A stretch of DNA of 64,000 nt, taken from sequence record OR352954; one strand, given 5' to 3'. The notes under the pieces are model-generated. The model was not told the origin of the DNA. It saw nothing but the letters and a program-made list of their open reading frames with translations, and made no database searches. The position numbers and the translations under genes are program-made. The DNA is from Escherichia phage AV124. Of this stretch, positions 46,286-57,147 are shown piece by piece (positions within the stretch are counted from its first letter, which is position 1; each line of letters opens with the position of its first letter).

Positions 46286-46987
46286 TTATTGGTTTGGGGC
46301 ATCAGTATTGTTCTGACCACCATCATCTGTCCAAGTATAGTGATGTGTATGGCGAATAAAATAATCATAAAAATCATTCATGTTGACACCACGCGCAGTA
46401 ATAATATTGCCATCAGGGGTAACTTGAGCGCCATTCATCTTAATCGTACCACCAGATTCTGCTGTCAGGTTTGCCGCTCCATTATCGAATTTGAAATTCC
46501 CAGATTGGTCAACCACTAATTTACCTACTGGCGTCTCCAGTGTGAAATCACCAGCAGGCGTCATTGAGAAATGCACCTTGTCGTTCCAAAGTTCAACATT
46601 GTCTGGATCTATGGTCATGGCATTCCCATCGCTGTGAACACCAATTATTGCCCACCCTGGGAACATATTATGAGTTGTCTGGTCATTATTATCATTCTCA
46701 TTTCTTTCTGAGAAGCTTAGACCCACAATATCACCAGGCTTCACAGGAAGCGTTAGGCGGGCTTTTCCTCCATTACCTGAAGGCATTGATAGAGGAACAT
46801 CAAAAACAGAACCATAGGCATCCACGGTGCCATCTGGGAAGTTTGTACTTGCAAGGGGTTGAACTGTTGCAGATGGGATGCTATAGTCTACATCAACTAC
46901 CTTTGCCCTTAGCCCTGTGTGAATATCTCTGGCCTGTTTCGCAAACCATTGATTAAGGGCTGCATCCATACGAGTTATTGCTGCCAT
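46286..46987 (-). CDS. baseplate central spike-like protein (His-rich apex)
   Basis: ATG 46987 overlapping upstream stop; C-terminal 'FIRHTHHYTWTDDGG' His cluster reminiscent of spike-tip metal sites. Confidence 0.35.
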   Translation of the reverse strand: MAAITRMDAALNQWFAKQARDIHTGLRAKVVDVDYSIPSATVQPLASTNFPDGTVDAYGSVFDVPLSMPSGNGGKARLTLPVKPGDIVGLSFSERNENDNNDQTTHNMFPGWAIIGVHSDGNAMTIDPDNVELWNDKVHFSMTPAGDFTLETPVGKLVVDQSGNFKFDNGAANLTAESGGTIKMNGAQVTPDGNIITARGVNMNDFYDYFIRHTHHYTWTDDGGQNNTDAPNQ

Positions 46988-47976
46988 TAGCCCTCCACAA
47001 TTCCACCACGGGTTTCTGCAAGTCCTAACTCTGTGATCCAATCCCCACCTTCGAGCTGGCCTTTGTGAGTTAAGTATACAACCTTGTAAAAACCTGTATA
47101 TTTCTGGCTCTTTAAAAATACCGTTGATTCTGGTATGATAGCGCCATTCATTTCTGTTACCACCACCAACCCAGCGTCTTCTTTTATCTCTGCGGAAGTA
47201 GGTTCATGAGGCTTAGAGGATTTTCTCTTAGACTTCGCCTTTTTTTCCTGTCTCCTCTTTGCAGGCTCGGGGTTCTGTGGCGTTGGAGAATCATGCATAC
47301 CAGATTCAGCGCTGATCTCAAAAACTGCCCTTTGAAATCTTTTCCCTTGCGTTGTCCAGTATACAGCCCCATCTTGAACACTGAAAGTAGACCCTGTATT
47401 CTTGGCTAATCTCTCCAGGTTATTTGCGGCGAGACCCGTAAAGGACATAGAGTGCTGAAGCGTCTGGTCTCCAAACTTGACGATTTTACCAACAGGGAGC
47501 TTCATATCAGAAGCGAGATCACTAATTACCGTATCTATTGGCGTACCTTTCTTATAAGAGCGGGAGGTCTTTGCCGTTTTAATGTTTACTGTCGCATCAC
47601 CGAGGATCATCTTTGTCTGACGGGTATTGCCGTCCCACTTATCCTGAACAAACTCTACGGTCCCAGAAAAGATAGTCTGATTCTCACCATCAAACCCGGC
47701 CTCAAGAACGATAGCAATGGACTCTCGTTGGTTAGCATCGAGGTAGCTCACCGTCTCATCGGAGAGGTTGTAGATGGTAACATACCCTTTATTAGGCTCC
47801 TTCGAGTTGTCTTTTTTGACCTCGAACTCGATGTTTGCGGCACCAGTTTCATTACTGATATAATACGCATCTTTGGCGTTCTGATTAGTGTAATCTGAGA
47901 TATTGGTAGGCTTTTCACCAACATACACTGGTTTGCCTATCGTTAGCTTATAGGTTCTTGTTCTGTAAGCAGGCAT
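46987..47976 (-). CDS. baseplate hub/assembly protein
   Basis: Position after tape measure cluster; Lys-rich internal segment. Confidence 0.3.
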   Translation of the reverse strand: MPAYRTRTYKLTIGKPVYVGEKPTNISDYTNQNAKDAYYISNETGAANIEFEVKKDNSKEPNKGYVTIYNLSDETVSYLDANQRESIAIVLEAGFDGENQTIFSGTVEFVQDKWDGNTRQTKMILGDATVNIKTAKTSRSYKKGTPIDTVISDLASDMKLPVGKIVKFGDQTLQHSMSFTGLAANNLERLAKNTGSTFSVQDGAVYWTTQGKRFQRAVFEISAESGMHDSPTPQNPEPAKRRQEKKAKSKRKSSKPHEPTSAEIKEDAGLVVVTEMNGAIIPESTVFLKSQKYTGFYKVVYLTHKGQLEGGDWITELGLAETRGGIVEG

Positions 47977-48333: not shown

Positions 48334-49205
48334 TAGTTACCTACCGCTTTATTATAGTCGATGATATTACCATTTTGGTCCTTGAGCTTGCCATCCGGCG
48401 TCAACGTACCAACCACCTGGTCTTGCTTGGTATAATCGCCGATACCCATCTCATCTGCAACCTTTTGCCAACCATCTTGATTAGGACCAGCAAACTTAGT
48501 TCTCCTTGCAGTGACTTCTACTTCGTCATCTGTAGCCGAAGACTGAACAGAACCTTTCTGCTTTGTTTTCCCACCAGATTTTTTAGGGTCGGTATATACC
48601 GTGGCTAAGGCTGTCTTCCCAAGGGTAAAAGTACGGAACTCTGTAAACTCAAGTTGGAACACCAAAGCCGCCCCATCAGAATTGCTACGACTTGCTTCCA
48701 AGGAAGTCAAGATATAGTTTTCAATGATACGATCTTCCGTTACAAGCGTAACGATTTGGCGATCAGTGATGAGCCTTTCTAAAACCTCTAAGGCCTTTTC
48801 AGGACGTCGTGATTCGACAGGATTGTTAGGGTCGGTATCTTTGTCGATATAGTTGTTTTCGATCATATATAGTGGTGAGCTGTTTATTCTCGCACTAAAA
48901 GAGAATTTACCATCCTCTATTACGCCGTGATCACTGTATTTGACCTTATTCTCTACTGCGTAGGAGGTTTTGTCAACAGTTCTTGTATACGTATGGTCTT
49001 CAACAACATCAAATAAGATCGCAATATTATCCGTATAGTTTTTATTTTTTAATTCTACATTCCTTCCGCCATTATTAAGGCCGCTAGCAAACAACGTATA
49101 TTGAACTTCACTACTGGCATTCTGAGCCGTAGAGATCTTTTGCTCAACGTTTGCTGTAGCCTTACCTTGTTGCGGTTTGGACTGGTTGCTTGCTACAACT
49201 GCCAT
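48333..49205 (-). CDS. tail protein distal to tape measure (baseplate hub/DNA-circulation position)
   Basis: 290 aa immediately after TMP gene. Confidence 0.35.
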   Translation of the reverse strand: MAVVASNQSKPQQGKATANVEQKISTAQNASSEVQYTLFASGLNNGGRNVELKNKNYTDNIAILFDVVEDHTYTRTVDKTSYAVENKVKYSDHGVIEDGKFSFSARINSSPLYMIENNYIDKDTDPNNPVESRRPEKALEVLERLITDRQIVTLVTEDRIIENYILTSLEASRSNSDGAALVFQLEFTEFRTFTLGKTALATVYTDPKKSGGKTKQKGSVQSSATDDEVEVTARRTKFAGPNQDGWQKVADEMGIGDYTKQDQVVGTLTPDGKLKDQNGNIIDYNKAVGN

Positions 49206-49265
49206 AAAACCTCCTCAATAAGCTTGTTATGATTTTATCATAAATCTTCAAATAAAACAACGAAA

Positions 49266-49283
49266 AAGGGGCCGAAGCCCCTT
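49266..49283 (-). terminator. intrinsic terminator after tape measure gene (minus strand)
   Basis: AAGGGGC-CGAA-GCCCCTT hairpin then TTTTCGTTGTTTTATTT on minus strand. Confidence 0.55.
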
Positions 49284-49286
49284 GTG

Positions 49287-51698
49287 TTAATCTGGGACAC
49301 CAAGGATTAAATTGATGTTGCCCATATTCGATGCTTCGATCTGTTGGTCAATCATATCCTTCAGCTCTCCGGCATCCAGTTTGATAGTTATCTCACCAGA
49401 GACAGGCTCTGTCGGAATAACCATAGGCGGGGCAGCAGAAGACTTACCATTCGCCCCAGGCATCTGATTGTTCAGATAATCTAGGGTTGCCTTATCAGGC
49501 CCCCAGAGGTTAGAGAACCAGCTTCCTGTTTTTCCACTGACAATGCTATCATGCACATTGGAGAACACTTTACCACGCTCTTCGTTGAAGTCGCTGTACG
49601 GATTATATCTGTCGTTAAGTTCAGATCCTAAAGTGAACAGGGACAGCAGTCCACCTAAGGAACCTGCCCCTTTAAAGAACTTACCTACACGAGAGAATCT
49701 ACCACCCTTAGCAGGGCCAGCTCCGCCACCACCTTCGCCACCTTTAGGCGTAGCTCCATCACCTTTACCAAAAACAGCACCAATACTCTTGATCGCCCCA
49801 GCAAGGCCTGCGATCTTAGCGAGGATGTTGAACACCCTGACCAGAGATGTTGCAAAGAATATAGCACCTATTCCCCAGCCTACCCAGTTCCATGTCTTAG
49901 AAATATCTTCCCCATTCTTTCTGAATATGGGAATATATCTTTCTAAGATCGCATTAACCATCGTAAAGGCATTATACAGAGCATAAGGTATCTTCATAAA
50001 CCCGTCTATGAATCCTGCGACAAACTGCCCCACAGCTGCGGCGAGTGGACCATTAGAGTCCAAGATCTTGGCAAGGTTATTAAATGTCTCTGTCATCTTA
50101 TCACCAAAACCAGATTCGAAGATCTTGTTCTGGAAGTTCATCCAAGTCTGGGTAAGGCGTTGCATAGCAACCCGGTTACCTTGTAAAGCTTTCTGTAGTG
50201 CTCCACCCTTGTTAGCAGCTTCAGCATAGTATTTAGCAACGAACGGAAGCACTTTAGCAGCCTTCAGCTCACCCTTCTGCATCATATCCATCAATTTAGT
50301 AACGTCGATGGTGGAGTCGTTAAAAGCTTCTTGCGATGCCTTTATGAACACCTGTAATGATCCGGGGATACCTTCAGCAAGCTGTTGCTTAAGTTCTTCA
50401 GCCATGATCTGGCCTTTACCCATCATCTGTTGAATAGCTGTAATACCGCGTTGGTATTTTACAGGGTCAACCTGAAGGGCAGTTGCATACTCAGAGAATG
50501 ACTTGAAGAGTTGGTCGTTTTGTGATTTAGTAAGCACACCGTTTGCTGCGATAGACATTTGTGTGTAACCCTGGGCCGCTACCTTAAGGTCGAGACCTAA
50601 ACGATACGCCTGGTTTCTCACAAATTCAATACGCTTACCAGCCTCTGCGGAGTCATCGGATACCATCAGCATTGTTGCTTCCATACCCTGGAAGAACTGA
50701 CCCGTTTTCAGAACACTTGCAGCGGCATTAAACGCCCCGTATGCTGCTGTAACGCTGATCAATGTGCTACGTAAAGTTCTCAGACCATCATTCAGGGAAA
50801 GAGTATTAGCGCTGGCCTTACGAAGTCCAGTTTCCATAGAGGCAAGTTCTGCACGGAAATTTGATGCCTTCATGTTCCCGCTCTTCATATAGCGGTTGAC
50901 TAAAGAATCATACCCCGGCATCTTTCTTGCATATTTGTCACCATACTTGGCACGAAGACGAACGTTGGCGTTAGAGATTGTGCTGATCTTCGCTTCACGC
51001 GCTCTTGCTCTTCTCCCTGCCTCGCGCTCTTCATCGCGAATCATTTTCTCTCTGGCTTTATTGTCAGCCTTGTCCTGTTTTACTTGTTCTCGGCGTATTC
51101 TCGCATGGCCACGTTCCATTGCCTTGCGTTGCTGTTCAGCAACTTTCGGGTCATAAGCCGTAGCATTTGCATTGAGAATCGGAGATCCCCAGCCCTGAGA
51201 ACCTTTATTTTTTAGACTCTCTTCATATGCTGCCATGCGAGCGGCAGCGATAGAAGGATTCGTACCATACGTACCATTCTTAGCCGCAAGCTTTTCTTGT
51301 TGACGCAGTTGAGCCTTTAAAGCATTATAGTTTGCCTGAGATTCTGGAGACCGTCCAGCCGTTAATCTCGATACGGCTGCTTTTCTCCTGGCTTTTTCTA
51401 TCTTATCAATGGCCTCTCTTGCACGAGCTTCCTTTTTAGCCATCGCGATGTTATGTGCGGTAGTTTTTGCTGCTTCAGCTCGTTCTACTTGATTGAGACG
51501 CTTGTTTACCATCCTTGCTTGCATGGCAGAACGTTTAAGAGCAGCAGCGGGATCGGCTTTAGCAGAAGAAAAAGCTTTCCCGGTCTTTTCCCATTCGGAG
51601 CGAATTTGCTTTACAGCCTTCAAGGCGCGTCCAAAGGACGTTTTGTCAACGTCCCATGTGACCTTGTTGACTGTAGAAGTCACTATAATATTTGCCAT
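49287..51698 (-). CDS. tail tape measure protein
   Basis: 803 aa; N-terminal Ala/Lys/Arg/Glu coiled coil, central hydrophobic block, Gly-rich segment; follows frameshifted chaperone. Confidence 0.8.
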   Translation of the reverse strand: MANIIVTSTVNKVTWDVDKTSFGRALKAVKQIRSEWEKTGKAFSSAKADPAAALKRSAMQARMVNKRLNQVERAEAAKTTAHNIAMAKKEARAREAIDKIEKARRKAAVSRLTAGRSPESQANYNALKAQLRQQEKLAAKNGTYGTNPSIAAARMAAYEESLKNKGSQGWGSPILNANATAYDPKVAEQQRKAMERGHARIRREQVKQDKADNKAREKMIRDEEREAGRRARAREAKISTISNANVRLRAKYGDKYARKMPGYDSLVNRYMKSGNMKASNFRAELASMETGLRKASANTLSLNDGLRTLRSTLISVTAAYGAFNAAASVLKTGQFFQGMEATMLMVSDDSAEAGKRIEFVRNQAYRLGLDLKVAAQGYTQMSIAANGVLTKSQNDQLFKSFSEYATALQVDPVKYQRGITAIQQMMGKGQIMAEELKQQLAEGIPGSLQVFIKASQEAFNDSTIDVTKLMDMMQKGELKAAKVLPFVAKYYAEAANKGGALQKALQGNRVAMQRLTQTWMNFQNKIFESGFGDKMTETFNNLAKILDSNGPLAAAVGQFVAGFIDGFMKIPYALYNAFTMVNAILERYIPIFRKNGEDISKTWNWVGWGIGAIFFATSLVRVFNILAKIAGLAGAIKSIGAVFGKGDGATPKGGEGGGGAGPAKGGRFSRVGKFFKGAGSLGGLLSLFTLGSELNDRYNPYSDFNEERGKVFSNVHDSIVSGKTGSWFSNLWGPDKATLDYLNNQMPGANGKSSAAPPMVIPTEPVSGEITIKLDAGELKDMIDQQIEASNMGNINLILGVPD

Positions 51699-51710
51699 AA
51701 TTTCCTCAAT

Positions 51711-51743
51711 AAAAAAGCCAGGCTCCTGAAAAGGAACCTGGCT
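51711..51743 (-). terminator. stem-loop plus U-run immediately upstream of tape measure start (attenuator/terminator candidate)
   Basis: AGCCAGG...CCTGGCT 7-bp stem, then TTTTTATT, GAGGAA SD, ATG on minus strand. Confidence 0.3.
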
Positions 51744-51748
51744 TGAGA

Positions 51749-52135
51749 TTAACCTCTTCTGCCTTTGCTTCGGGGTTTAGCTGCTTCGGCGTCTGCTCTC
51801 GATTTCTCTTCTTTCTCATTAACATCGTTGATGAAATCTTCGACATCGAGATATTCGTTTAGCTTAAGCAAATATTCCATATCGGCAGACTCAAGGGAGA
51901 TATAAGATTCTCCCTTAAAGTTCTTCAGAGCACGGCACCAGAGATAGTCGAACCACGTCAGGGAACTATTTTTTCTTGCATAATCAATAGCTCTTTGGAC
52001 GACTTTAGAAATTTTGGACGGTGTTATTCCGCTGCCACTTCCGTCGGTTCCTGATCCACCGTCGCTACTTGGTGAACCATCCCGAAGTTGCCCAGAAGTC
52101 CCTGAAGGTCTGCGAAACCGTCTTTCGTGAAAAAA
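51749..52135 (-). other. -1 frame extension of the tail assembly chaperone (gpGT-like fusion via programmed frameshift)
   Basis: Slippery heptamer T_TTT_TTC (complement of 52129-52135) in 0 frame; -1 frame open with no start codon for ~125 codons to TAA at 51749-51751 (checked codon by codon). Confidence 0.5.
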
Positions 52136-52503
52136 CAGCCGTAGTTAATCTTCAGAACCTCCGCTACCAATTTGATCAGATCCAACATCTTGTCCTGGAA
52201 GATTGTATCAATATCAATCTTGCCAGCCATTCCGTTCACAGACACATCTTCAAGGATGAGGTCGAATAATTTTTCGATATCATCTTGCTCCATCTGCTCA
52301 AACAGGTATAGAATTGCGGTAGGTAGTGCTTCAGAGAGGTTAGACCCTCCGGTAAACAATGCACCACTAATAGTAGCCATTGGAACTGCGATATAACGAC
52401 CAATCTTAGGAAGGTTTTTCATAACCTTGGACGGAGACCAGTGTGTGATTACAAAGTTCTTACCAGCCAGATCGATTTCTGTGGTAGGTCTAAAATTCAT
52501 CAT
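52024..52503 (-). CDS. tail assembly chaperone (gpG-like, 0-frame product)
   Basis: ATG 52503 (MMNFRPTT...) after AGGAG; sits between tube and tape measure genes. Confidence 0.55.
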   Translation of the reverse strand: MMNFRPTTEIDLAGKNFVITHWSPSKVMKNLPKIGRYIAVPMATISGALFTGGSNLSEALPTAILYLFEQMEQDDIEKLFDLILEDVSVNGMAGKIDIDTIFQDKMLDLIKLVAEVLKINYGCFFTKDGFADLQGLLGNFGMVHQVATVDQEPTEVAAE

Positions 52504-52584
52504 GTGTACGCTCCTGCGTCTTTTAAAGTGTGGATATCCATGCGTGTTTGAAAAGGCCACATCCTTGTGGCACACGAAACGCTA

Positions 52585-53058
52585 TTAGATGATACCTGCA
52601 AGGCCAGCCAGACCGAAGCCTGTAGCGTACAGAGTATCTGGGCTTAACCATGCGTCCAGGATTCCGATTTCCCAGTCCATTTGGCCTACTTCAGTACCGT
52701 AGGTCAGGTCAGGCTGTTTCTGAATCCAACCAACTGTGCTCAGACCCATACCCTGGGAGCCTTCAAGAAGGACAGGGAAGAAAATCAGACCAGTGATGGA
52801 AGCTTGTTTCTGCCAGTTAGCCAAGTACCCGTTCCATACCGAAGTGTTCTGTAGAGAGACAGTCAGGACACCAGATTGGTTACGAGACAGCGCTGCTGAC
52901 AGTTCACCATCAACCCCCATGTGGGGGATGATGTTATCTTCGTTGCGAGCAACGACGATCTTGGTATCCGCTGCGAACCCAGTGACGCGCTGAGTCATCA
53001 TATAGAGACGCGCTTTCTGTGGGTCGTAGGCATACGGGGTTAAAATTCTTGTATCCAT
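52585..53058 (-). CDS. tail tube protein
   Basis: 157 aa, directly downstream of sheath-size gene and upstream of chaperone/TMP. Confidence 0.5.
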   Translation of the reverse strand: MDTRILTPYAYDPQKARLYMMTQRVTGFAADTKIVVARNEDNIIPHMGVDGELSAALSRNQSGVLTVSLQNTSVWNGYLANWQKQASITGLIFFPVLLEGSQGMGLSTVGWIQKQPDLTYGTEVGQMDWEIGILDAWLSPDTLYATGFGLAGLAGII

Positions 53059-53061
53059 TTA

Positions 53062-54558
53062 TTACACTCCTGCTGTTACTTGTCCGCTGGAAGAAGTAGA
53101 CCCGGTTTTGTCTAGCAGAACAGAGATGCGAATCTTGACGAAATGCAAGGAACTGTTGTAGACTAACTCTACCTTAACATTGTTAAGGGTACGAGATGCA
53201 AGGTCGTTAGATGGGATGCTTGCACGAAGCGGAATTGTTACAACCGGATCGTAGAACACCTTGTTGACGGAATCATATCCGGTCAAAATAGACCCATTAG
53301 TGATACCGACGTTCAGAGGACTGTTCATCAGGACTGCTTTTAGGTTCGGCATATCATCATCGCTCATCTTCATGGAAAGGCCAAGATTAGAACGGCGAGA
53401 CATATATGCGAAGATACTCTCTTCACTTCTGAATTTCAGCCAGTGTCCGAAACGAACTACGTCAACATACTGACCGGAAGCACACTTACCTTCCCAGAAT
53501 GCACCAACACCATTAATCATACGATAGAAGTTCAGGTTCTGTCCCCAAATTGTTGGGCGATCGGAAGAACTGAGTGTTGGAGCAACTACGCCAGGCATTG
53601 TCTTCAGGTGAATAGAATCACCATATGAAGGATCATTAGAAGCCATAGCCCCTATGATTCCTCCTTCGGAGAATGCACTATCCGCAAGAGGGTCGTACAT
53701 ACCAATACTGGTATCATATTGGAGAGCTTTTAGCTGATTAGCGATAGAATTGCCATCAACAACCAAGGATAGTTGGTCAGCTGTTGAATATACATGCAGC
53801 TTATAATTAGCAGATGCATAAGCGGCTGCACCAAGAATCGCAGATGCAATATGTTGCTCTGTACTCAGGAAATACCAGTTGTTATTTGCGGTTTCAATCT
53901 CCGGGAGAATTCCGCTAACTGTTTCCGTAGAGGTATTTGTAAGTGTACAATTACCATAATCGATACCGATGCTGAATGGCTCGCCGATAACATCAGAAGA
54001 TGTTGCCATAATGCCCTGGTCAGATTCGGTTGTAACCACCTCGTCATTGTTAGTCGCCAGCAGAGAGCCGTCGCCTTTCGGGGTGATTGTTACAACACCA
54101 GCGGTAGCTACTGCACCGACAATTACGTTAAGCGTGGTATCAGAGTTGATTGCAGATGCTAGGGCTGTTGCAATACTGTCTGGCGTAGATGCGGCAGTAA
54201 CAGGAATAACGATGCTTTTAGTATATGCGCCTGCTGCAACGTTGAAACTTACCGGGTTATTAGGATCTACGTTTGTCTGCCCTGTGAAATTGATAACTGT
54301 TGATTCCCATGCTTGTCTTCCGATCATAAGCGCTTGGGGGCGGAAAGTCCCAGCAAAGGCTTTTGTCGCAAAAGTATACGCAGGGGAACCTACAGCGAAA
54401 CCATCCGCAGCGAGTTCATCCAGATCTGTATATGTACGTACTCGTTCTGGGAAAACGTTGTGAATTGCGATAAATAGAGGGGTTTCAAACCCTACGGTGT
54501 CGATTGGTTGTGTCCCGAGAACAACCGTTACGTCAACAACCTTATCATTATAAGCCAT
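53062..54558 (-). CDS. tail sheath protein
   Basis: 498 aa; sheath-tube-chaperone-TMP order typical of contractile tails. Confidence 0.5.
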   Translation of the reverse strand: MAYNDKVVDVTVVLGTQPIDTVGFETPLFIAIHNVFPERVRTYTDLDELAADGFAVGSPAYTFATKAFAGTFRPQALMIGRQAWESTVINFTGQTNVDPNNPVSFNVAAGAYTKSIVIPVTAASTPDSIATALASAINSDTTLNVIVGAVATAGVVTITPKGDGSLLATNNDEVVTTESDQGIMATSSDVIGEPFSIGIDYGNCTLTNTSTETVSGILPEIETANNNWYFLSTEQHIASAILGAAAYASANYKLHVYSTADQLSLVVDGNSIANQLKALQYDTSIGMYDPLADSAFSEGGIIGAMASNDPSYGDSIHLKTMPGVVAPTLSSSDRPTIWGQNLNFYRMINGVGAFWEGKCASGQYVDVVRFGHWLKFRSEESIFAYMSRRSNLGLSMKMSDDDMPNLKAVLMNSPLNVGITNGSILTGYDSVNKVFYDPVVTIPLRASIPSNDLASRTLNNVKVELVYNSSLHFVKIRISVLLDKTGSTSSSGQVTAGV

Positions 54559-54590
54559 TGATTTCCTCTTCTTCTATTTCTTTCATAAAG

Positions 54591-55136
54591 TTATTGTTGA
54601 TCATCTGGAGCCGGATAGTAATAAACCATCTCTGCATTCACCCTTTCGATATCCTCGAAGGCCCCTGTATCTGTCACGCCAACGCAGACGTTAAACGTGA
54701 TAAGTACAGTTGCACGGTTTTCGAAGGTTTGCATGTTCAACGGAACTCTCTGGCGCGATACCGTTGAGGAAGAAGAATATGCAAATGGGGAATTGGTTGG
54801 AAAATACTTGTCGCAGATGTAGGGGAGGCTCAAGGCCTGTAGAATCCGAGTTAATGCATTTGATGCTTTTCCTCGAAATGCTGTCAGGTTGTAAACCACC
54901 TCGTAGTTGTGAGTTATTACAGCGTTACCGCTCTCATCTACCCACTCGTTCGCAGCCCAGTCCATCTGGTCAGCGGTAACTTGGTTGAGCATGATGAACT
55001 CACCCTCTACCTTGGATATGACGTCTCCGTCCCCGTCAATTATTTTTCTCCCCGTGACTTCTTTGCAAAATCTGGCGAGCGTAACTGCGAGGGCGTCAAA
55101 AATATCATCGGAGTTTGTTACGAAGTCTGCCATCAT
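54591..55136 (-). CDS. neck/tail terminator protein
   Basis: Small late gene between head and sheath genes, overlapping neighbours. Confidence 0.3.
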   Translation of the reverse strand: MMADFVTNSDDIFDALAVTLARFCKEVTGRKIIDGDGDVISKVEGEFIMLNQVTADQMDWAANEWVDESGNAVITHNYEVVYNLTAFRGKASNALTRILQALSLPYICDKYFPTNSPFAYSSSSTVSRQRVPLNMQTFENRATVLITFNVCVGVTDTGAFEDIERVNAEMVYYYPAPDDQQ

Positions 55137-56656: not shown

Positions 56657-56722
56657 ATCTTATCATAGAACGTCGATTTTGTCATCAAAAACACTTGACA
56701 TCGTGGAACAGGGTGCTATTCT
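56657..56722. promoter_or_regulatory. divergent promoter candidates
   Basis: Plus strand: TTGACA (56695-56700), 16-nt spacer, TGcTATTCT extended -10 (56714-56722). Minus strand: ATGACA (56685-56680), 17-nt spacer, TAAGAT (56662-56657). Confidence 0.35.
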
Positions 56723-56748
56723 CAAAGAAAATTATTGAGGAGAATCCC

Positions 56749-57147
56749 ATGAAAGCAGTAATAGCCGGTGTTATCACAGCCATCGTTGTCTCGGGTGGAC
56801 TTATCTACTTTATGAAAACCAACCCCAATATGAACAAATTCGACGATGTTTCTTCAAGCTGGTTGTCGGCTGAAGAAAAAACAGAGGCCATTCATCGGAT
56901 TGCTGGGATGAAATGCGATACAGAATTCAGAAAGGCATTCATTCCCGGCACTCTGACGACGCAGACAGGTATGTTAGATGAGATGGAAGAACAAGAAGAT
57001 AGTTTCCAAGTAATGAGAAATATGGGGATAGTGAACGGTACTGTTCTTGCAACAGGAACTTACATCTGTAAATATTATAAGGATGGCCGACAACCTTATC
57101 TTCAGGTATCTTTGAAACCGGAGGCGAGACCGCTACTAAAAAAATAA
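56749..57147 (+). CDS. membrane-anchored protein encoded opposite to the structural operon (moron)
   Basis: ATG 56749 after GAGGAG SD; N-terminal TM 'AVIAGVITAIVVSGGLIYF'; own promoter and terminator. Confidence 0.5.
   Translation: MKAVIAGVITAIVVSGGLIYFMKTNPNMNKFDDVSSSWLSAEEKTEAIHRIAGMKCDTEFRKAFIPGTLTTQTGMLDEMEEQEDSFQVMRNMGIVNGTVLATGTYICKYYKDGRQPYLQVSLKPEARPLLKK

What the first reader, a model, noticed from the sequence alone, without database searches (positions are those of the whole stretch)
51749..52503. Programmed -1 frameshift in the tail assembly chaperone upstream of the tape measure gene
The chaperone ORF (52024..52503) contains the canonical slippery heptamer T TTT TTC (complement of 52129-52135) about 35 codons before its stop. 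The -1 frame from that point is open for roughly 125 codons to a TAA at 51749-51751 and has no start codon of its own; I checked every codon. This matches the conserved G/GT arrangement of tailed phages. A stem-loop with U-run sits between the fusion stop and the tape measure start.
Basis: seen in the sequence. Interest (0 to 1): 0.5.

Follow-up and report, generated by a model that had tools for sequence, protein, structure and literature searches.

The report
Frameshifted tail chaperone of a Klebsiella phage
This is the usual two-for-one gene trick of tailed phages: a few ribosomes slip back one base on TTTTTTC near the end of the tail assembly chaperone gene and make a longer fusion protein. 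It is ordinary biology, but none of about 20 related genome records inspected annotates it.

Summary
The window is a Klebsiella Mydovirus, an rV5-like myovirus. On the minus strand lie sheath, tube, a 159-aa tail assembly chaperone (52503..52024, Pfam Phage_TAC_15), an unannotated stretch, then the tape measure gene.

T_TTT_TTC (52135..52129) sits in X_XXY_YYZ register, 34 codons before the chaperone stop. The -1 frame opens 9 nt upstream of it and runs 126 codons to TAA 51751..51749, giving a 251-aa fusion.

In 21 related loci down to about 27% protein identity the -1 frame is open and encodes a conserved helical C-terminal domain. Nineteen keep T_TTT_TTC in register (18 confirmed by frame analysis); Barbavirus has G_GGA_AAG and a Vibrio phage A_AAT_TTT. 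That turnover favours ribosomal over transcriptional slippage.

The 48 codons that relatives leave as intergenic show substitutions at codon positions 1/2/3 of 24/23/116, so they are translated.

One detail is wrong: the -1 frame does hold an ATG (51880) and a TTG (51871), 83 and 86 codons after the slip. The hairpin with a U-run (51744..51715) is real and conserved in Vequintavirinae.

Verdict: a new, unannotated member of the known G/GT frameshift class; low novelty.

The parts
52585..53058 (-). Tail tube gene (157 aa), immediately upstream of the chaperone
   Evidence: PF11681 and phrog_280. Follows the sheath gene 53062..54558 (phrog_205, E = 1.8e-110).
52511..52515 (-). Shine-Dalgarno AGGAG of the chaperone gene, 7 nt before ATG 52503
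   Evidence: Read directly from the sequence. Relatives annotate the same start.
52024..52503 (-). G: tail assembly chaperone, zero-frame product, 159 aa
   Evidence: PF21822 Phage_TAC_15 at 96.9 bits (cut-off 22); phrog_3840 E = 1.4e-69.
52145..52147 (-). TAA that closes the -1 frame 9 nt upstream of the heptamer; upstream limit of the window in which a shift can occur
   Evidence: In relatives this stop lies 3 to 93 nt upstream of the heptamer.
52129..52135 (-). Slippery heptamer T_TTT_TTC in X_XXY_YYZ register (codons 123-125: TGT TTT TTC, Cys Phe Phe)
   Evidence: In register at the homologous place in 18 of 20 related loci analysed. Replaced by G_GGA_AAG in Barba23A and A_AAT_TTT in Vibrio phage 249E41-1.
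52024..52128 (-). Overlap region: zero frame encodes the 34-aa C-terminal tail of G; the -1 frame encodes the start of a Gly/Ser-rich linker
   Evidence: No stop in the -1 frame in any of 18 sequences. AlphaFold2 pLDDT is below 50 for fusion residues 131-163.
51749..52129 (-). T: -1 frame extension, 126 sense codons plus TAA 51751..51749; with codons 1-125 of G it gives a 251-aa GT fusion
   Evidence: Matches phrog_10409 (E = 4.8e-39), phrog_8811 and phrog_16039, all of unknown function.
51881..52023 (-). Stretch left as intergenic in related records, yet coding in the -1 frame (48 codons, no ATG/GTG/TTG)
   Evidence: Against 8 relatives, differences at codon positions 1/2/3 are 24/23/116; 97 codon changes are synonymous and 34 are not.
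51779..52006 (-). Folded helical T domain (fusion residues 167-242)
   Evidence: Four helices with block-mean pLDDT 71-89. Conserved motif: A172, L182 invariant; W184, E217 in at least 90%.
51749..51880 (-). 43-codon ORF from the internal ATG, annotated as a separate hypothetical protein in BIS47, VLCpiM5b and Mydo; here read as the C-terminal end of GT
   Evidence: The Met is not conserved outside Vequintavirinae.
51705..51744 (-). Intrinsic-terminator-like hairpin (13 pairs, 4-nt loop) plus U-run, between the GT stop and the tape measure start
   Evidence: A hairpin plus U-run is present in all Vequintavirinae loci, with different stem sequences that still pair; absent in phi92/phAPEC8-like loci.
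49287..51698 (-). Tape measure gene (803 aa), immediately downstream
   Evidence: PF20155 TMP_3; phrog_5255 at 1256 bits.

Best explanation
**Proposed mechanism**

This is a programmed -1 ribosomal frameshift of the G/GT type. Most ribosomes translate the chaperone gene to its stop at 52026..52024 and make the 159-aa G protein.

A minority pause with the two Phe-tRNAs on UUU (P site) and UUC (A site) within U_UUU_UUC. Both tRNAs slip back one base onto UUU UUU. Translation then continues in the -1 frame through a disordered Gly/Ser-rich linker and a four-helix T domain. The product is a 251-aa GT fusion that ends at TAA 51751..51749.

By analogy with lambda gpG/gpGT, the shared N-terminal domain of G and GT would coat the tape measure protein. 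The rare T domain would recruit tube subunits to start tube polymerisation. Neither protein would end up in the virion.

**What is shown and what is inferred**

- Shown here: the sequence anatomy, its conservation, and the coding signature of the extension.
- Inferred: that the shift is ribosomal, its efficiency, and the roles of the two proteins.
For: **In the window**

1. The heptamer is in the exact register, and the -1 frame opens only 9 nt upstream of it.
2. The gene sits between the tube and tape measure genes and is a Pfam tail assembly chaperone.
3. The AlphaFold2 model puts the slip site at the end of the last helix (106-125) of the N domain. A disordered linker and a confidently folded helical domain follow.

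**In relatives**

4. tblastn with the fusion finds the two-piece, two-frame arrangement in hundreds of phage records; 279 of 500 cover at least 80% of it.
5. In 18 of 20 related loci analysed T_TTT_TTC is in register at the homologous place. The -1 frame has no stop over 109-141 codons in all. After the G stop the zero and +1 frames hold 3 to 14 stops.
6. The codon before the heptamer always ends in T, although it encodes Cys, Ser or Pro. Phe-Phe is always TTT-TTC.
7. Two lineages carry different canonical heptamers within a few codons of the same place. Barbavirus has G_GGA_AAG, the lambda type, and Vibrio phage 249E41-1 has A_AAT_TTT.
8. The 48 codons with no start codon show differences at positions 1/2/3 of 24/23/116 and 97 synonymous against 34 non-synonymous codon changes.

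**From the literature**

9. U_UU.U_UU.C is among the more efficient -1 motifs in E. coli and shifts at more than 0.1% without stimulators (PMC4066793).
10. The same arrangement, with a GTTTTT motif, was proposed for the sister families Vandenendeviridae and Andersonviridae (PMC12846349).
Against: There is no direct evidence of the fusion protein.

No conserved stimulatory RNA structure lies downstream of the heptamer, and no Rfam family matches. An SD-like GGAGGT or GAGGTG lies 13-14 nt upstream in many relatives, but the window has AAGATT there. Lambda-type G/GT sites also work at low efficiency with little stimulation, so this is weak counter-evidence.

Some relatives have an ATG, GTG or TTG soon after the G stop (PVP-SE1, rV5-like). 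Independent initiation there cannot be excluded from sequence alone. A run of six T could in principle also support polymerase slippage.
Confidence: 0.88

Rival explanations
1. Transcriptional slippage: RNA polymerase adds one extra U on the T6 run. A fraction of mRNAs then encodes GT in a single frame, and ribosomes never shift. The protein outcome would be identical.
For: The site is a homopolymer run, T6, preceded by C4-5 in phi92-like phages. [quoted passage not shown] 2022, known to me only from the title in the reference list seen). The conserved GTTTTT motif would suit either mechanism.
Against: Six T is shorter than the runs of about 8-9 that give efficient slippage by bacterial RNA polymerase (my own knowledge of the field, not tested here). 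The run is always positioned in X_XXY_YYZ register, which polymerase slippage does not require. Barbavirus (G_GGA_AAG) and the Vibrio phage (A_AAT_TTT) have heteropolymeric heptamers at the homologous place. These suit tandem tRNA slippage but are poor templates for polymerase slippage.
Confidence: 0.07
2. Two separate genes, as the databases annotate. G ends at its stop. A small independent protein is made from the -1 frame ORF, 43 aa from ATG 51880 or longer from a non-canonical start.
For: All records inspected annotate it this way or leave the region blank. PHROGs holds the fragment as separate families. Some relatives have a canonical start shortly after the G stop.
Against: The 48 codons upstream of ATG 51880 are under stronger purifying selection than the annotated 43, yet they hold no ATG, GTG or TTG. 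No SD is visible before ATG 51880. That Met is not conserved outside Vequintavirinae, and no start codon occupies a conserved column. The -1 frame is kept open back to the heptamer in every lineage.
Confidence: 0.04
3. Chance: a fortuitous heptamer next to a fortuitously open frame, with no product.
For: In-register heptamers do occur by chance elsewhere in the window: 46 in 26,220 codons. One example is T_TTA_AAG at 47116 in the hub gene.
Against: The heptamer, the open frame and the encoded protein are all conserved across subfamilies at about 27-30% identity. The extension has a coding substitution pattern.
Confidence: 0.01

Closest known systems
Phage lambda gpG/gpGT, and the conserved tail-chaperone frameshift of long-tailed dsDNA phages (Levin et al. 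1993; Xu, Hendrix and Duda 2004, 2013, 2014, as summarised in PMC5009743)
   Same: Position between the major tail or tube gene and the tape measure gene. [quoted passage not shown] A longer minor fusion product. A downstream ORF with no conserved start of its own. The Barbavirus relative even uses lambda's own heptamer, G_GGA_AAG.
   Different: No detectable sequence similarity to lambda G or T was sought or found here. The phage is a contractile-tailed myovirus of about 145 kb. The heptamer is T_TTT_TTC. An intrinsic-terminator-like hairpin sits between the GT stop and the tape measure start. Ratio and function are untested.
The -1 frameshift proposed for tail assembly chaperones (TAC-N/TAC-NC) of Vandenendeviridae (Pakpunavirus, phage Adele) and Andersonviridae (Felix O1-like, Mooglevirus): PMC12846349
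   Same: Related myovirus clades with the same virion module. [quoted passage not shown] The -1 frame is open through a region annotated as intergenic or as a small hypothetical gene. The argument there is also purely comparative.
   Different: That paper analyses the chaperone locus only in Vandenendeviridae and Andersonviridae, not in Vequintavirinae or Stephanstirmvirinae. Homology between those chaperones and this one was not tested here beyond weak hits to other chaperone PHROGs (phrog_1613, phrog_1688).
Phage P2 E/E+E' and Mu-type chaperone frameshifts in contractile-tailed phages
   Same: A myovirus context, with sheath, tube, frameshifted chaperone and tape measure in that order, and a T-rich heptamer. 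This rests on my own knowledge of Xu et al. 2004 and was not checked here.
   Different: Different protein families and much smaller temperate phages.

Membership tests
G/GT-type frameshifted tail assembly chaperone (Xu, Hendrix and Duda 2004 class) | Two overlapping ORFs located between the major tail or tube gene and the tape measure gene | tested here: met
   Tube 53058..52585, G 52503..52024, -1 ORF to 51749, tape measure 51698..49287.
G/GT-type frameshifted tail assembly chaperone (Xu, Hendrix and Duda 2004 class) | A slippery sequence in the correct register inside the overlap of the two frames | tested here: met
   T_TTT_TTC at 52135..52129 in X_XXY_YYZ register, 9 nt after the -1 frame opens and 34 codons before the G stop.
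G/GT-type frameshifted tail assembly chaperone (Xu, Hendrix and Duda 2004 class) | The downstream frame lacks its own conserved translation start | tested here: met
   No ATG, GTG or TTG for 83 codons after the slip. The first ATG (51880) has no visible SD and its column is not conserved. First starts fall at different places in different relatives.
G/GT-type frameshifted tail assembly chaperone (Xu, Hendrix and Duda 2004 class) | The arrangement (heptamer, frame relationship, extension) is conserved in divergent relatives | tested here: met
   18 of 20 loci analysed keep T_TTT_TTC in register and 2 carry another canonical heptamer. The -1 frame is open in all. The T domain is conserved, and the extension has a coding substitution pattern.
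G/GT-type frameshifted tail assembly chaperone (Xu, Hendrix and Duda 2004 class) | Both a short major and a long minor product are made, in a fixed ratio | not testable with these tools
   Needs protein detection in infected cells or a reporter assay.
G/GT-type frameshifted tail assembly chaperone (Xu, Hendrix and Duda 2004 class) | Both products are needed for tail assembly and absent from virions; the T part binds the tube protein and the G part binds the tape measure protein | not testable with these tools
   Needs genetics and biochemistry. The rV5 proteomics paper holds neither 'frameshift' nor 'chaperone', which says nothing either way.
Pfam PF21822 Phage_TAC_15 (tail assembly chaperone domain) | Score above the curated gathering threshold over the full domain | tested here: met
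   96.9 bits against a cut-off of 22; residues 14-130 cover profile positions 2-126 of 127. The domain ends at the slip site.
Known RNA frameshift stimulators (Rfam families; downstream hairpin or pseudoknot 5-9 nt after the heptamer; upstream SD as in dnaX) | A conserved stimulatory element at the proper spacing | tested here: not met
   No Rfam match. Minimum-free-energy folds downstream differ between relatives. The upstream SD-like GGAGGT of many relatives is AAGATT in the window.

The most novel reading that the evidence does not exclude
A whole clade of large lytic myoviruses uses an unannotated, stimulator-free -1 frameshift. The clade covers Vequintavirinae, Stephanstirmvirinae, Plateaulakevirus, Barbavirus and related Vibrio and Pseudomonas phages, about 500 records in the phage collection. 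The slippery heptamer has been swapped at least twice during evolution (T_TTT_TTC, G_GGA_AAG, A_AAT_TTT) while the decoding outcome stayed fixed.

In Vequintavirinae this is paired with a conserved intrinsic terminator placed directly between the GT stop and the tape measure start. Two recoding or attenuation devices in series would then set the G : GT : tape measure stoichiometry.
Probability: 0.35. Interest if true: 0.35.

Novelty: new member of a known kind. Interest (0 to 1): 0.25.

Why it matters
The main value is better annotation. In every related record inspected (about 20, including RefSeq entries for BIS47, PVP-SE1, phAPEC8 and muut) the T part is either a truncated hypothetical protein or blank intergenic DNA. 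Three PHROG families of unknown function (10409, 8811, 16039) are fragments of it.

Recognising the fusion assigns a function to roughly 275 nt per genome in several hundred therapeutic-candidate phages of Klebsiella, E. coli, Salmonella and Cronobacter.

The turnover of heptamers at one homologous site is a tidy natural experiment. It shows that selection acts on the decoding event rather than on the sequence. None of this changes what is understood about tail assembly.

Tried and rejected
1. **Downstream stimulatory RNA structure.** I folded 80 nt after the heptamer in 18 loci. The folds differ and none sits at a conserved 5-9 nt spacing. The conserved GGTTTCG block is explained by conserved residues in both frames (Gly-Phe in the zero frame, Arg-Phe-Arg in the -1 frame). 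It is absent in the Aeromonas phages.
2. **Upstream SD-like stimulator.** It is present in many relatives but not in the window.
3. **Rfam scan of 51500..52700.** It gave only two chance-level hits with E near 0.9.
4. **Solved structures.** phmmer against PDB sequences found nothing meaningful. Foldseek of the AlphaFold2 model against the PDB had no hit with E below 1; the best was 5ir0, E = 1.5.
5. **An apparently single-frame fused relative.** Salmonella phage GE_vB_MG matched as one tblastn piece. The record is marked UNVERIFIED and its frames are broken repeatedly around the locus. Its heptamer is unchanged. I rejected it as assembly error.
6. **Two records where only 'tail assembly chaperone' lay under the T match (H132, H139).** They do not annotate a joined CDS; the T part is simply blank.
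7. **Hairpin between the tube and chaperone genes.** It is not better than shuffles, z = -1.5.
8. **Other long -1 extensions in the window.** T_TTA_AAG at 47116 merely runs into the next gene, which has its own SD and a TAATG stop-start junction.

Full report
**What the window is**

The region 49000..54600 is 91-96% identical in DNA to Klebsiella and Raoultella phages of the genus Mydovirus. These include BIS47, VLCpiM5b, KB57 and Ro1. They belong to the subfamily Vequintavirinae, the rV5-like myoviruses of about 145 kb.

On the minus strand the order of genes is as follows:

| Feature | Coordinates | Evidence |
|---|---|---|
| Neck/tail terminator | 55136..54591 | PF23961 |
| Tail sheath | 54558..53062 | phrog_205 |
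| Tail tube | 53058..52585 | PF11681, phrog_280 |
| Tail assembly chaperone | 52503..52024 | PF21822 Phage_TAC_15, 96.9 bits; phrog_3840 |
| About 325 nt with no long ORF | | |
| Tape measure protein | 51698..49287 | PF20155, phrog_5255 |
| Baseplate genes | downstream | |

**Checking the observation**

- The chaperone ORF starts at ATG 52503, with AGGAG 7 nt upstream, and ends at TAA 52026..52024. It encodes 159 aa.
- TTTTTTC occupies 52135..52129 and reads TG[T TTT TTC] in the chaperone frame. That is the X_XXY_YYZ register needed for tandem tRNA slippage.
- TTC is codon 125, and 34 sense codons follow before the stop.
- The -1 frame is closed by TAA 52147..52145 and opens just 9 nt before the heptamer.
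- From CAC 52129 the -1 frame runs 126 sense codons to TAA 51751..51749. A shift would give a 251-aa fusion.

The claim that the -1 frame has no start codon is not literally true. There is an in-frame ATG at 51880 and a TTG at 51871. These define the 43-codon ORF that the ORF listing reports. BIS47, VLCpiM5b and Mydo annotate that ORF as a hypothetical protein. The first 83 codons after the slip site do lack ATG, GTG and TTG.

The hairpin with a U-run is real. It has a 13-pair stem at 51744..51715, a 4-nt loop, and then TTTTATT. The folding energy is -24.8 kcal/mol, z = -3.8, and none of 200 shuffles folds as well.

*Is it more than chance?* In-register heptamers with Y = A or T occur 46 times in 26,220 ORF codons of the window, so about 0.06 are expected in a 35-codon overlap. 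Three of the 46 have a -1 frame extending more than 30 codons past the zero-frame stop.

- One, at 47116, simply runs into the next gene, which has its own SD and a TAATG stop-start junction.
- One, at 57138, is at the last codons of a plus-strand ORF and reads antisense to a minus-strand gene.
- The third is this site.

**Comparative evidence**

tblastn with the 251-aa fusion against 50,697 phage records found 500 records. In 279 of them one place covers at least 80% of the fusion. Nearly all matches come as two pieces in two frames. I fetched 24 loci, L001-L024.

- *Frame analysis covered 20 loci.* These were L001-L017 and L021-L023, plus L024. The three left out were L018 and L019, inspected for annotation only, and L020, an error-ridden assembly.
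- *The 18 loci with T_TTT_TTC.* They keep the heptamer in register at the homologous position, at the end of the motif NYG(C/P/S)FF. They represent:
  - Vequintavirinae: Mydovirus, Seunavirus, Henunavirus, Vequintavirus, Certrevirus, and unclassified members such as phages Kashira and TH18.
  - Stephanstirmvirinae: Justusliebigvirus, Phapecoctavirus, and phages KP13-16 and Tr1.
  - Plateaulakevirus, from Aeromonas.
  - Pseudomonas phage PsgM04F.
- *Constraint on the heptamer.* The preceding codon encodes Cys, Ser or Pro but always ends in T. Phe-Phe is always TTT-TTC. The flanking codons vary freely.
- *The two exceptions.* Rheinheimera phage Barba23A has G_GGA_AAG, lambda's own heptamer, about three codons downstream. 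Vibrio phage 249E41-1 has A_AAT_TTT at the aligned position.
- *Frame openness.* In all 18 sequences tabulated (the window and L001-L017), the -1 frame has no stop from the heptamer to the end of the extension. After the chaperone stop, the zero frame holds 3-9 stops and the +1 frame 3-14. The -1 frame is also open past the chaperone stop in the other four loci analysed. The upstream stop that closes the -1 frame lies 3-93 nt before the heptamer, and only 3 nt in the Aeromonas phages. The heptamer is therefore the only shared place where a shift could occur.

**The extension is a real protein domain**

Aligned fusions show three parts:

- a conserved N domain;
- a variable Gly/Ser-rich linker;
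- a conserved C-terminal domain, with a consensus around (K/R)A(I/M)xYAxKNSSLxW(F/Y)DYL...GE(S/T)xxSL(E/D)...(Y/D)LLKxNEYLD.

The extension matches PHROG families 10409, 8811 and 16039, all of unknown function. These are evidently fragments of it called as small ORFs.

The strongest single test is on the 48 codons between the chaperone stop and ATG 51880. Relatives leave these unannotated, and they contain no start codon. Against 8 relatives they differ at -1 frame codon positions 1/2/3 by 24/23/116. Of the codon changes, 97 are synonymous and 34 are not. That is tighter purifying selection than in the annotated 43 codons, where the counts are 74 and 82. This stretch must be translated, and the only conserved way in is from the chaperone frame.

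An AlphaFold2 model built from 16 fusions has mean pLDDT 71.8 and pTM 0.64. It shows a folded N domain whose last helix is residues 106-125, so the slip site falls exactly at the domain boundary. Residues 131-163 form a disordered linker with pLDDT below 50. A four-helix domain spans residues 167-242, with block-mean pLDDT of 71-89. The Pfam chaperone profile also ends at residue 130.

**Mechanism**

The best-supported reading is tandem -1 slippage of the P-site and A-site Phe-tRNAs from UUU UUC to UUU UUU. This yields a minor GT fusion beside the major G product.

U_UU.U_UU.C belongs to the class of heptamers that are most efficient in E. coli. It shifts at more than 0.1% without any stimulator (PMC4066793).

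I found no conserved stimulator:

- Downstream folds differ among relatives.
- Rfam has nothing.
- The SD-like GGAGGT or GAGGTG 13-14 nt upstream in many relatives is AAGATT in the window.

A low, unstimulated efficiency is what lambda-type G/GT sites need; the lambda ratio is about 30:1 (PMC5009743).

The functional roles are inferred from lambda and not tested here. In that model G and the G part of GT coat the tape measure protein, and the T domain recruits tube subunits.

**Rivals**

- *Transcriptional slippage on T6* would give the same protein. It does not explain the strict X_XXY_YYZ register or the heteropolymeric heptamers in Barbavirus and the Vibrio phage. I give it about 0.07.
- *Independent initiation of a small T protein*, the database view, is contradicted by the coding signature upstream of any start codon. 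It is also contradicted by the lack of a conserved start column. I give it about 0.04.
- *Chance* is excluded by conservation.

**The hairpin**

The terminator-like hairpin between the GT stop and the tape measure start is conserved in every Vequintavirinae locus. Its stem sequences differ but still pair. Examples are AGCCAGGTTCC/GGAGCCTGGCT in the window, GGGCTGGAGTC/GACTCTGGCC in CR8 and GGCCAATGTC/GATGTTGGCC in Kashira. It is absent from phi92- and phAPEC8-like loci.

It probably attenuates transcription into the tape measure gene or stabilises the upstream mRNA. This was not tested.

**Comparison with what is known**

This is the conserved G/GT frameshift of long-tailed phages (Levin 1993; Xu, Hendrix and Duda 2004; reviewed in PMC5009743).

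The nearest published statement is a December 2025 paper (PMC12846349). It argues on the same comparative grounds for a -1 frameshift with a GTTTTT motif in the chaperones of Vandenendeviridae and Andersonviridae. Those are sister clades of Vequintavirinae.

Searches of the held library found no paper reporting it for Vequintavirinae, Mydovirus, rV5, PVP-SE1 or phi92. The rV5 genome and proteome paper contains neither 'frameshift' nor 'chaperone'. None of the roughly 20 annotated records inspected has a joined CDS.

**Verdict**

This is a new, unannotated member of a well-known kind. It is useful for annotation, and the heptamer turnover is neat, but a specialist would not be surprised. Interest 0.25.

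Noticed in passing
window 51705..51744 (-); L003-L010 and L017 just after the GT stop: The terminator-like hairpin between the GT stop and the tape measure start is kept in all Vequintavirinae loci, with different stem sequences that still pair. It is absent in phi92- and phAPEC8-like phages. An intrinsic terminator directly in front of the tape measure gene is an unusual place for one.
   Followed up: partly
window 49266..49283 (-): A second strong terminator-like hairpin (AAGGGGCTTCGGCCCCTT followed by TTTCGTTGTT) lies right after the tape measure stop.
   Followed up: no
L011 1124..1130 (Barba23A); L024 1336..1342 (Vibrio phage 249E41-1): At or within about three codons of the homologous site these phages carry other canonical heptamers, G_GGA_AAG and A_AAT_TTT, instead of T_TTT_TTC. 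The slippery sequence has turned over while the frameshift arrangement persisted.
   Followed up: partly
relatives, 13-20 nt upstream of the heptamer (for example L007, L008, L012, L015); window 52149..52154: Many relatives have an SD-like GGAGGT or GAGGTG about 13-14 nt upstream of the heptamer, encoding Leu-Glu-Val. That spacing resembles the dnaX upstream stimulator. The window has AAGATT there, and a GGAGG lies further upstream at about 52161..52165.
   Followed up: partly
window 47116 (-) and 46985..46989 (-): An in-register T_TTA_AAG lies 40 codons before the end of the baseplate hub gene, and its -1 frame is open into the next gene. That next gene has its own GGAGG and a TAATG stop-start overlap, so the heptamer looks fortuitous. 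The next gene (46286..46987) has no PHROG match.
   Followed up: partly
window 56695..57147 (+): A 150-codon plus-strand ORF with a predicted hydrophobic helix (MKAVIAGVITAIVVSGGLIYF) sits alone among minus-strand structural genes, in a gap with no minus-strand ORF. It may be an inserted accessory gene.
   Followed up: no
AlphaFold2 model of the GT fusion against PDB 5ir0: The best, non-significant Foldseek match of the model is ORF19 of a Vibrio cholerae PICI-like element (PDB 5ir0), a protein of unknown function (E = 1.5, TM-score 0.58 on the target). If real, it would hint that this element carries a chaperone-like protein.
   Followed up: no
L020 (MG969411.1, Salmonella phage GE_vB_MG): This UNVERIFIED record has many frame disruptions across the chaperone locus. 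That explains why the fusion matched it as a single tblastn piece. It is an assembly artefact, not a naturally fused GT.
   Followed up: yes
L011 1426..2064 and L014 1622..2298: In Barba23A a reverse-strand putative DNA-binding gene lies between the GT locus and the tape measure gene. In Aeromonas phage 4L372XY the gene annotated next after the GT locus is an endonuclease. The tight chaperone-tape measure linkage is therefore not universal.
   Followed up: no
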